From Callorhinchus milii (taxonomy: Eukaryota), in the NCBI RefSeq assembly GCF_018977255.1, contig NW_024704749.1, positions 19,530,001 through 19,594,000 on the forward strand: 64,000 nt of DNA, read 5' to 3'. A program made the translations under genes and the position numbers. The notes below the pieces were generated by a model. It made no database searches, had not been told where the DNA came from, and saw nothing but the letters and a program-made list of their open reading frames with translations. Each line of letters starts with the position of its first letter. Position 1 is the stretch's first letter. This document shows, piece after piece, positions 48,128 through 51,100 of the stretch.

Positions 48128-51100
48128 CTAACCCTCAGTTACTCCCCCCTCTGCCTGACCCTCAGTCACTCCTCCCTCTGCCTGACCCTCAGTTACTCCT
48201 CCCTCTGCCTGACCCTCAGTTACTCCTCCCTCTGCCTGACCCTCAGTTACTCCTCCCTCTGCCTGACCCTCAGTTACTCCTCCCTCTGCCTGACCCTCAG
48301 TTATTCCTCCCTCTGCCTGACCCGCAGTTACTCCTCCCTCTGCCTGACCCTCAGTTATTCCTCCCTCTGCCTGACCCTCAGTTACTCCTCCCTCTGCCTG
48401 ACCCTCAGTTACTCCTCCCTCTGCCTGACCCTCAGTTACTCCTCCCTCTGCCTGACCCTCAGTTACTCCTCCCTCTGCCTGACCCTCAGTTACTCCTCCC
48501 TCTGCCTGACCCTCAGTTACTCCTCCCTCTGCCTGACCCTCAGTTACTCCTCCCTCTGCCTGACCCTCAGTTACTCCTCCCTCTGCCTGACCCTCAGTTA
48601 CTCCTCCCTCTGCCTGACCCTCAGTTACTCCTCCCTCTGTCTGACCCTCAGTTACTCCTCCCTCTGCTTGACCCTCAGTTACTCCTCCCTCTGCCTGACC
48701 CTCAGTTACTCCTCCCTCTGCCTGACCCGCAGTTACTCCCTCCTCTGCCTGACCCGCAGTTACTCTTCCCTCTGCCTGACGCGCAGTTACTCCTCCCTCT
48801 GCCTGACCCTCAGTTATATCTCCCTCTGCCTGACCCTCAGTTATATCTCCCTCTGCCCGACCCTTAATTGGGTATCTCACACCGTCCTCAGTCAAACCGC
48901 TCTCTGCTTGACTCTCATTTGTGTCTCTCTCTGTCTGATCTTGCAGCATCAGGTCTAGCTCTGTCTGGGTATTCTGCAGTCTCAGAAGTGTGGATTCTAT
49001 GATGCTGCAAATTTCCTAGCCAAGGAAGAAAAGAAAAGTCTTGAGTGGAGCTCCAGCGGTGGAAAAGCACATCAGAGAGAAGCAGCTCCCCATATAAAGA
49101 AGCAGTATGTACAGCGCTGATCTTTGCTGATATTCCCTTTAATCGGTAATGGCCTCAGTCGCCTCGCTTGAGAAGTTATGATTTACACATCAGCCTTTGT
49201 CATTAAAAAAATGTAAAAGCGCGGGAGGCAAAAATAGATGGCACAGATTTGAGTTACCTCATTGGAAGCATATTTCACTTTGATTTCATTCAACAATTGC
49301 ATGATGTTCTGAGATAATAGCTCAATTTTCACATCCTCTGTAACAGGACAAAGCAGAGAGATCCTCAGTAACCCACTCTAGGTCAGACCAGAGCCGTCCT
49401 CAGTAACCAACTCCCAAGAAAATAATTCCTGTTTACAGCACTGTTGATGCTGAAACATCTCAACATGCTTCCTTCACAGGGTATTATTTTGCCCACAAAA
49501 TACACAGTCAATTCACTTTACAGTATATTCTTTGAAGTGCTTTGAGACGTCTTGAAGACGCGATAAGGTGCTATAACAAATGCAAGGATTATTATTGTTG
49601 AGTATTGTGACTCGTTTCTCGGCAAACCCGGCAGCCAATTGAGCACCGCAAGATTCTGTAAATAGCCATGGAGTAACTGACCAATTCATTGGGAGGGATT
49701 TTTAGCCATGACACAGGGAAAACGGCCTTTTCTTCTGCAATAGTGCAGCGGGATCCTTAACATGCACCTGAACGTGCACAAGATAGTACCTCGGTTTAAG
49801 GTCTCATCCAAAGGACGGAGCCTCCAACACTGCAGTGCTGTACTATCCCGCTATGTTCCACGCTGTGAAGCCAACTCACTGTATTGGACCAACTCAAAGA
49901 ACAGGGTACAGATGTTCTCCACTATCTCCGGGTCTTCCTGGTGAACATAGTAGCTGCTTATTATCGAACTGAGGCCATCTTTTTCCTCTTCCGGTACCAG
50001 GATCCTGAATGCTACAAGTTCTGAAAGACAAAGCACTCGACTGTCAGTGTATGGGGTATATGGATGGTGCGGGGGCCGAGGGCGGGGAGTCAGCTGTCTG
50101 GGTGCAGAGGGCAAGGAAGTGGGATGGGGGGAGAGATACTGAGGTTACAATAACCTTTCTGTTTGTGATCTAACCCATCTTTCCTTTTATCTACTTTTGT
50201 CCCCAGGTATAAGAGCACCTCTTATTCTCTTGCACCCTCTAGTCGATTTCTTCCCCCAAGTAGCTCTCTTATATTTGGTGACACAACCTGCCCTCACTAG
50301 CTCCCTGGCTCATCCAGGCCACACGATCACCACTCTCTTTACTGTGTAAAGTCATACCATCTGAACAATCGTCACCTCCACCTTCTCCTCACCTCGATTC
50401 TGCGTCTACTTTTGAGGAACAGGAGACGGATATTCAGCCTTGGAGCTTGTTCCACCAGTTTATTGGAGGGTGGATAGCAGAAAATTAATACTTTTTTTAC
50501 CCCTTCCTTTAACTCCCTAATTTCCCAAATTCTTATCTCCCTCTTAAACATCCCGATCGATTCCGCCTGCCCCGCACTCTCGCCACCCTCTGCGTGATGA
50601 GATGAGGTTATGAACACCTCTGTATCAATACAATACAAAATTACGTGGAGCACGACAGTCCAGTGTATCTACGCCCTTTGGGATTCTTGGGATCTATGAC
50701 CTTCGGGATCACCCCTGAGCCTTCTCCAGTCTGACTGAACGTTCCTGGTTTCCGAAGCATCCTCCTCTTCTCCACTTTACTCTCTTGACGTTGGTTGCTG
50801 TGCGCAAGAGCTCACCTGACTTGTGAATCAGGCAGGCGAGTAAAAGGTAGGTAACTTTCACCACCAGGTTCTTGCGGAGGTGGATATGAAGCCCTTCGAG
50901 CAGGAGTAGTGTCAGTTTCTCAGACTTGCTATCAGTCAGGCGCTCTGAAGAGAGAGAGCAATGAATGTGTGCATCAGGTTAACATCTCGAAGCGGTGTCG
51001 CTGTGGAAACCCGAGCAAGGTGGGGAGTAAAGTGTGCGGGAGGCGATGCCATCACACACTAAGAGAAGAAAGGTCATCGACCTGAAATGTTAGCTCGCTT

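What the first reader, a model, noticed from the sequence alone, without database searches (positions are those of the whole stretch)
48128..49015. STKLD1 has captured a 27 x 27-bp minisatellite as a 243-aa acidic Gly-rich C-terminal tail
Seen: the last exon starts at a clean acceptor (cttggctag|GAA, phase 0, matching the upstream exon) and reads [14 protein letters not shown]... without a stop into exactly 27 nonapeptides (consensus QAEGGVTEG). It ends at a TAG in the position of the unit's CAG, with AATAAA ~45 nt later. Two degenerate units ([18 protein letters not shown]) precede the array, and no unit breaks frame. I recall no such tail in mammalian STKLD1. Inference: a lineage-specific coding VNTR adds an intrinsically disordered, roughly -2 per unit polyanionic domain to a testis-type pseudokinase, and it is probably length-polymorphic.
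Basis: partly seen in the sequence, partly recalled or inferred. Interest (0 to 1): 0.7.

Follow-up and report, generated by a model that had tools for sequence, protein, structure and literature searches.

The report
Repeat-grown acidic tail on chimaera STKLD1
In a chimaera-type fish, a 27-base piece at the end of the STKLD1 gene (a sperm-tail protein in mammals) is repeated 27 times in frame, which would add a 243-amino-acid acidic, likely floppy tail that sharks lack; it is most likely a tolerated passenger, and the spliced message carrying it was not seen.

Summary
The array is real: 27 units of 27 bp (48859-48131, minus strand) in frame in exon 19 of a single-copy STKLD1. Exon 19 is the ancestral last exon: its first 15 codons match 9 of 9 shark and ray proteins at 5-9 of 15 residues, but those end after 29-38 residues, against 295 here. 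'Captured' is not supported. The unit occurs only here, and two 19/27 degenerate copies sit where shark proteins end, so it likely grew in place. An assembly frameshift in exon 5 is an artefact. The gene is transcribed and partly spliced, but the 18-to-19 splice was seen in 0 of 4 runs, and intron 18 was unspliced where covered. Units show no selection (4 of 12 variants synonymous). AlphaFold2's confident beta-solenoid fits a published artefact. Mammalian STKLD1 sits in the sperm radial-spoke bridge (PMC11779644). The scan noted similar coding repeats in CLNK and SOWAHB of this genome. Verdict: a new protein-coding VNTR, likely a neutral disordered tail.

The parts
48128..60643 (-). STKLD1 gene, 19 coding exons, 917-aa model (kinase-like domain, helical repeats, tail)
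   Evidence: Exon phases; model against 34 homologs; 4 of 4 genome matches of P0041 lie in this gene
48128..49015 (-). Exon 19 coding part, 295 aa plus TAG
48971..49015 (-). Conserved terminal helix, first 15 codons of exon 19
   Evidence: 5-9 of 15 identical to 9 of 9 elasmobranch last exons; intron-18 read-through control 0-2 of 15
48884..48937 (-). Two degenerate units (19 of 27 each), where shark and ray proteins end
   Evidence: 0 of 20000 shuffles; ortholog lengths
48860..48883 (-). 24-nt spacer, possibly a third decayed unit lacking one codon
   Evidence: 14 of 27 in the window starting 48886; inference
48131..48859 (-). 27 x 27-bp minisatellite, 243 aa of [13 protein letters not shown] units
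   Evidence: 26 of 26 genome matches at up to 3 mismatches are here
48128..48130 (-). TAG stop
48079..48084 (-). AATAAA, first poly(A) signal downstream of the exon 19 acceptor
   Evidence: use not shown
49016..49257 (-). Intron 18 (242 nt, donor GAG|GTAACT); unspliced in the RNA-guessed contigs that cover it
58030..58033 (-). Start of exon 5: 1-nt assembly deletion at a synonymous Ile polymorphism
48024..48029 (+). AATAAA on the opposite strand, likely poly(A) signal of the convergent REXO4-like gene
   Evidence: RNase_T hit at 45132-45362; gene name recalled from human synteny

Best explanation
A 27-bp coding segment near the ancestral C-terminus of an intact, transcribed STKLD1 gene has likely been amplified in place by tandem duplication, and a normally spliced message would add a 243-aa acidic, likely disordered tail that is probably tolerated rather than selected. 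Shown: the array, its frame, its single location, the older degenerate copies, the ancestral coding start of exon 19, and the intact frame in two runs that look like genomic DNA. Inferred: slippage or unequal exchange as the cause; splicing of intron 18 in mature spermatid mRNA (needed to make the conserved last helix); translation to the TAG; a flexible tail hanging off the radial spoke 3 stalk, outside the conserved fold; and little effect on fitness.
For: Exon 19 begins with a helix conserved in sharks and rays (5-9 of 15 against 0-2 of 15 for intron read-through), so a functional mRNA must enter it. No stop or poly(A) signal precedes the array end. The unit is absent elsewhere in the 991-Mb genome (26 of 26 matches here), and degenerate copies lie in the ancestral tail. 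The tail is already variable among orthologs: 15-54 residues in 31 of 34 aligned homologs, and 84 residues follow the last aligned position in PDB chain 9fqr_Xr. There is no sign of selection: 4 of 12 variant alleles are synonymous against 26% expected (p 0.38), and the chance of no stop among 12 random changes is 0.47. Four other minisatellites of 450 bp or more lie in this window. FoldIndex is -0.18. Transcription: X1 record 4 stops at the exon 12 donor with 528 unlaid letters, the exact sum of exons 13-16 (inferred, the letters were not shown).
Against: No 49258>49015 joint appeared in 4 of 4 runs. X1 and X4 contigs cross the exon 19 acceptor unspliced. In X1 the consensus-unit contig has depth 6.3 against 18.6 for the flank, far below the 14.6-fold pile-up a full array predicts; contigs cannot show levels, and a purine-rich repeat exon, RPGR ORF15, gets low short-read coverage (PMC10706286 passages). 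AlphaFold2 folds the tail confidently but not the antisense control frame. Eight of the nine unit residues recur in a loop of an invertebrate STKLD1, which passenger status does not explain.
Confidence: 0.6

Rival explanations
1. The tail is rarely made. Most transcripts keep intron 17 or 18, or leave exon 19 at a cryptic donor (48880), so the array is mostly untranslated 3' sequence.
For: Intron 18 is unspliced in X1 and X4, the exon 18 donor is unspliced in X2, and no joint was found. Array contig depth is low in X1. Intron 18 read-through gives a 24-aa end and a 646-aa protein, close to ortholog length. A donor-like GTGAGA lies at 48880.
Against: The read-through peptide matches ortholog ends at 0-2 of 15 against 5-9 of 15 for exon 19. 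A 1-nt insertion at 49204 in X1, X4 and X6 shifts that frame. X1 also holds introns 6, 7, 9, 11, 16 and 17, so it looks like incompletely spliced RNA; meiotic intron-retaining RNAs are spliced later in mouse (PMC5392497 abstract). Tissues of the runs are unknown.
Confidence: 0.2
2. The tail is a selected polyanion, working like RPGR ORF15 or a tubulin tail: a glutamylation substrate or electrostatic spacer that tunes the sperm RS2-RS3 bridge.
For: It is a purine-rich (77%), Glu/Gly-rich terminal-exon repeat on a ciliary protein. The frame is kept across about 800 nt including 30%-diverged units. AEGGVTEG recurs in an invertebrate STKLD1 loop (5 of 2,000,000 loop shuffles, post hoc).
Against: There is no downstream basic domain, which RPGR needs to recruit TTLL5 (PMC9897430 passages). 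There are no glutamate runs, no synonymous excess and no counterpart in 9 of 9 elasmobranch tails.
Confidence: 0.12
3. The nonapeptides fold into a beta-solenoid (7-residue strands, Gly-Gly turns), perhaps cation-dependent, forming a rigid strut.
For: AlphaFold2 single-sequence pLDDT is 77-87 over units 5-27 (58-71 over the first four); four of five models have mean pLDDT of 69 or more. The antisense frame control scored 34. The nearest folds are beta-solenoids such as curli CsgA (Z 19.6, rmsd 7.8, 247 aligned).
Against: AlphaFold2 gave beta-solenoids for 32 of 78 random perfect repeats, many confident (PMC11795689 section 3.2 part 1). There was one control only, and it also showed solenoid strands. 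Foldseek found no match at E 0.001 or below. Charge is -1.85 per unit with one large hydrophobe, and FoldIndex is negative.
Confidence: 0.05
4. The array is an assembly artefact, or the gene is a pseudogene.
For: The assembly has a frameshift at exon 5. One search found no database protein carrying this exon.
Against: X6 and X7 each carry a frame-restoring base. Their contigs end at 48828, where the assembled array predicts. Array units appear in X1, X2 and X5. Exons 5-19 are in frame with canonical GT-AG introns.
Confidence: 0.03

Closest known systems
Protein-coding VNTRs (ACAN, MUC1, TCHH, LPA; bioRxiv 10.1101/2021.01.19.427332, abstract and outline)
   Same: In-frame minisatellite in a coding exon giving a long near-perfect peptide repeat
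   Different: Here it is a C-terminal extension of an otherwise conserved globular protein in one lineage; variation among individuals is only hinted, and no phenotype is known
RPGR ORF15 (PMC9897430 passages; PMC10706286 passages)
   Same: Ciliary protein with a purine-rich repetitive terminal exon encoding an acidic Glu/Gly-rich region, hard to cover with short reads
   Different: ORF15 has glutamate-rich motifs and a conserved basic domain that recruits TTLL5. This tail has single Glu residues, ends at the repeat and is absent from sharks
STKLD1 (mammalian sperm RS3 stalk kinase; PMC11779644 passages; PDB chain 9fqr_Xr)
   Same: Ortholog by sequence, tree and neighbourhood; same HRN catalytic loop
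   Different: Last exon is 295 aa against 15-39 in the vertebrate rows that have it; the model is 917 aa against about 650

Membership tests
STKLD1 | N-terminal kinase-like domain plus C-terminal helical repeats homologous to named STKLD1 proteins | tested here: met
   46.7-54.2% identity to 11 elasmobranch rows; sister to 8 elasmobranchs, SH-aLRT 99, quick tree
STKLD1 | Neighbourhood of SURF4, REXO4, ADAMTS13, SLC2A6 | tested here: met
   RNase_T; TSP1_ADAMTS and Sugar_tr; human neighbours listed in a PMC8016878 table (REXO4 not named there). SURF4 and REXO4 names are recalled
STKLD1 | Sperm-specific binding to the RS3 stalk | not testable with these tools
   Shown for bovine sperm only
Pseudokinase | Loss of a catalytic motif residue | tested here: met
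   HRN for HRD and DFS for DFG; three invertebrate or choanoflagellate rows keep HRD and DFG. Activity not assayed
Protein-coding VNTR | Tandem unit that is a multiple of 3, in frame in a coding exon | tested here: met
Protein-coding VNTR | Present in spliced, translated mRNA | tested here: inconclusive
   Array units are in 3 of 4 RNA-guessed runs; the 18-to-19 joint is in 0 of 4
Protein-coding VNTR | Copy number varies among individuals | tested here: inconclusive
   The X1 contig fits one GDI unit; X5, X6 and X7 fit two. Graph collapse would give the same X1 contig
RPGR ORF15-type glutamylated tail | Purine-rich Glu/Gly-rich terminal exon | tested here: met
   77% purine; 51 Glu and 76 Gly of 243
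RPGR ORF15-type glutamylated tail | C-terminal basic domain that recruits TTLL5 | tested here: not met
   The protein ends at the last unit; requirement
RPGR ORF15-type glutamylated tail | Glutamylation in vivo | not testable with these tools
   Needs protein
Beta-solenoid repeat protein | Stable stacked parallel beta coil | tested here: inconclusive
   Confident model, weak control, documented AlphaFold2 bias

The most novel reading that the evidence does not exclude
Chimaera sperm carry, on the pseudokinase of the radial spoke 2-3 bridge, a selected 243-aa polyanion or cation-folded beta-roll built from an amplified motif. An invertebrate STKLD1 independently placed the same motif (AEGGVTEG) near the same end of the protein, and allele length tunes the flagellar beat.
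Probability: 0.07. Interest if true: 0.75.

Novelty: new member of a known kind. Interest (0 to 1): 0.3.

Why it matters
If translated, it shows that the C-terminus of a sperm axoneme bridge protein can take on 243 acidic residues, and it gives a clear case of a minisatellite born from the last codons of a gene, with its decayed ancestors still beside it. It also flags an assembly indel that makes this gene look broken. If tail length affected sperm motility, it would be a natural handle on an uncharacterised radial-spoke pseudokinase; nothing here shows that.

Tried and rejected
Two word-based protein searches with window pieces found nothing (weak evidence). Pfam found no family in exon 19. 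The ESM Atlas gave no answer. No listed run is on record as RNA, and X3 gave no contig on 48724-49480; neither is evidence on expression. The joint table was swamped by repeat copies (15 shown, 8059 not shown), so it cannot exclude the 18-to-19 splice. Depth at the array edge in X6 and X7 (bin means 29.8 and 23.5 against 10.2 and 8.8 for the single-copy contig) is not a copy number and was not used as one. Rejected: pseudogene; capture of a dispersed repeat; TAG as a mutated 28th unit (9 of 27); coding use of the long plus-strand frames over the array (no start or splice context seen; one folded at pLDDT 34). No other chimaera genome or protein was reachable. Literature: searches for STKLD1 (38 papers, 30 listed), SgK071 (4 of 4), STKLD1 aliases with shark or repeat terms (25 of 194 listed) and elephant shark with minisatellite terms (5 of 5) showed no listing on this tail; supplements were not opened. 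on chimaera sperm structure was seen as a listing only and not used.

Full report
Observation. The minus strand 49015-48128 translates to 295 residues and a TAG. TRF reports a 27-bp period, 27.2 copies, 96% matches and no indels. Cut in register there are 27 units from 48859 to 48131; 15 of 27 equal the consensus, the peptide has 76 Gly and 51 Glu of 243, and the net charge is -50. Only this minus-strand frame is open. The first poly(A) signal after the acceptor is AATAAA at 48084.

The gene. I traced 19 coding exons from 60643 to 48128, all with GT-AG introns. The 917-aa model is 46.7-54.2% identical to 11 shark and ray STKLD1 rows and 30.6-42.3% to the other 23 of 34 homologs aligned, out of 107 fetched. 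A quick tree of 31 rows (P0040, P0041, P0042 and P0105 left out as partial or misaligned; the careful search did not finish) places it as sister to 8 elasmobranchs, SH-aLRT 99, which is the position expected of a chimaera. Earlier scan notes call this genome elephant shark; I did not test the species. The gene looks single-copy (4 of 4 matches). Neighbours carry exonuclease, ADAMTS-type TSP1 and sugar-transporter domains, as expected from the human locus (PMC8016878 table; gene order recalled). The catalytic loop reads HRN where three invertebrate or choanoflagellate rows have HRD, so a pseudokinase is likely. In bovine sperm STKLD1 binds the stalk of radial spoke 3 and helps form the RS2-RS3 bridge (PMC11779644, three passages).

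A hidden frameshift. In the assembly the exon 4/5 junction is one base short; exons 5-19 are otherwise in frame. Two runs that look like genomic DNA each show one inserted base there, at 58030 in X6 and 58031 in X7. Both give a 105-nt exon starting with Ile, through different synonymous codons. The deletion is therefore most simply a consensus error at a polymorphic site, and the gene is not a pseudogene.

Exon 19 is ancestral. Its first 15 residues match 9 of 9 elasmobranch last exons at 5-9 positions, against 0-2 for read-through into intron 18. Those proteins end 29-38 residues into the exon, mostly with a short acidic tail (net 0 to -7). Among the 34 homologs, 31 have 15-54 residues there, two are truncated and one is misaligned. 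PDB chain 9fqr_Xr, labelled CFAP251 but matching STKLD1 at E 2e-80, has 84 residues after the last aligned position. The end of this protein is thus variable and lies outside the conserved fold.

Origin. The unit occurs nowhere else in the genome at up to 3 mismatches (26 of 26 matches in this array). Two in-frame copies at 19 of 27 identity lie at 48937 and 48910, a pair not reached in 20000 shuffles, at exon codons 27-44, where shark proteins stop. I infer that the last codons of the gene were duplicated, older copies decayed, and one version later expanded to near-homogeneity. That is growth in place, not capture. The 27 bases from the stop match the unit at 9 of 27, so the TAG need not be a mutated unit. 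Four other minisatellites of 450 bp or more lie in this window, and the scan noted coding repeats in CLNK and SOWAHB of this genome (unchecked).

Selection. Of 12 distinct variant alleles, 4 are synonymous against 26% expected (p 0.38), and the chance of no stop among 12 random changes is 0.47. This is a small sample with no signal.

RNA. I laid 5 of the 8 RNA-guessed runs; all are contigs and their tissues are unknown. X1 record 4 ends at the exon 12 donor with 528 unlaid letters, the exact sum of exons 13-16, and X4 record 11 ends at the same donor with 28 unlaid letters. I read these as spliced sense transcripts. Against my reading: no 49258>49015 joint appeared in X1, X2, X3 or X5; X1 crosses intron 18 unspliced at depth 18.6, and X4 crosses the exon 19 acceptor unspliced. 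X1 also holds parts of introns 6, 7, 9, 11, 16 and 17, so it looks like partly spliced RNA, as described for mouse spermatocytes (PMC5392497 abstract) or from leaky transcription (inference). Array units are present in X1, X2 and X5, but in X1 at depth 6.3 where a full array predicts about 14.6 times the flank. Contigs cannot give levels, and RPGR ORF15, a purine-rich repeat exon, is poorly covered by short reads (PMC10706286 passages), yet the deficit is unexplained. Translation of the tail rests on the conservation of the exon start, not on reads.

Polymorphism. X6 and X7 contigs end at 48828, as two GDI-type units predict, and X5 has an exact contig over both. X1 runs to 48820 plus 6 unlaid letters; a one-GDI allele predicts 48820 plus 5. 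This suggests a unit-level difference, but loss of a low-coverage loop in the assembly graph would look the same.

Structure. Composition predicts disorder (FoldIndex -0.18). AlphaFold2 without an alignment gives a helix at 2-39 and a beta-solenoid over the array, mean pLDDT 77.5; the antisense frame of the same DNA scored 34.4. The nearest folds are bacterial beta-solenoids (best Z 19.6, rmsd 7.8, 247 aligned), and Foldseek found none at E 0.001. AlphaFold2 made beta-solenoids of 32 of 78 random repeats (PMC11795689 abstract and part 1 of 3 of section 3.2), so I give the fold little weight.

An oddity. Of 107 fetched proteins only the three members of one unnamed invertebrate-type cluster (P0010, P0028, P0029) share 5 or more residues with the unit; they carry AEGGVTEG in a loop near the C-terminus. 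Five of 2,000,000 shuffles of that loop gave an 8-mer of the unit. The test is post hoc and covers one lineage; I cannot explain it.

Comparison and verdict. It is a protein-coding VNTR by anatomy (bioRxiv 10.1101/2021.01.19.427332 abstract), with expression and variability unproven. It resembles RPGR ORF15 in make-up but lacks the basic domain that recruits TTLL5 (PMC9897430 passages), so it is not a member of that kind. Searches listed nothing on this tail. Best reading (0.6): a repeat grown in place that would add a tolerated acidic disordered tail to a sperm radial-spoke pseudokinase. New member of a known kind; interest 0.3.

Noticed in passing
window 58030-58033 (-): 1-nt assembly deletion at the start of STKLD1 exon 5, at a synonymous Ile polymorphism; it makes the gene look frameshifted.
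   Followed up: yes
P0010, P0028, P0029 (residue 573 in P0010): An unnamed invertebrate-type STKLD1 carries AEGGVTEG, 8 of the 9 residues of the repeat unit, in a loop insertion; 5 of 2,000,000 loop shuffles reproduce this.
   Followed up: partly
window 48024-48084: Opposite-strand AATAAA signals about 50 nt apart: STKLD1 and the REXO4-like gene likely end tail to tail.
   Followed up: partly
window 39764-41083, 41434-42268, 62136-62733, 63086-63554: Four other large minisatellites, between the ADAMTS-like and REXO4-like genes and around the shared STKLD1/SURF4-like 5' region (SURF4 name recalled).
   Followed up: no
STKLD1 kinase domain (exons 6-7): Three invertebrate or choanoflagellate homologs keep HRD and DFG, while the vertebrate rows shown lack the HRD aspartate, so catalytic loss likely dates to the vertebrate stem.
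   Followed up: partly
PDB chain 9fqr_Xr: Labelled CFAP251 in the sequence file but matches STKLD1 over 620 residues at E 2e-80.
   Followed up: no
window 472-879 (-): Exon with a PIRC1_2 (piercer of microtubule wall) Pfam hit, another ciliary gene in the window.
   Followed up: no
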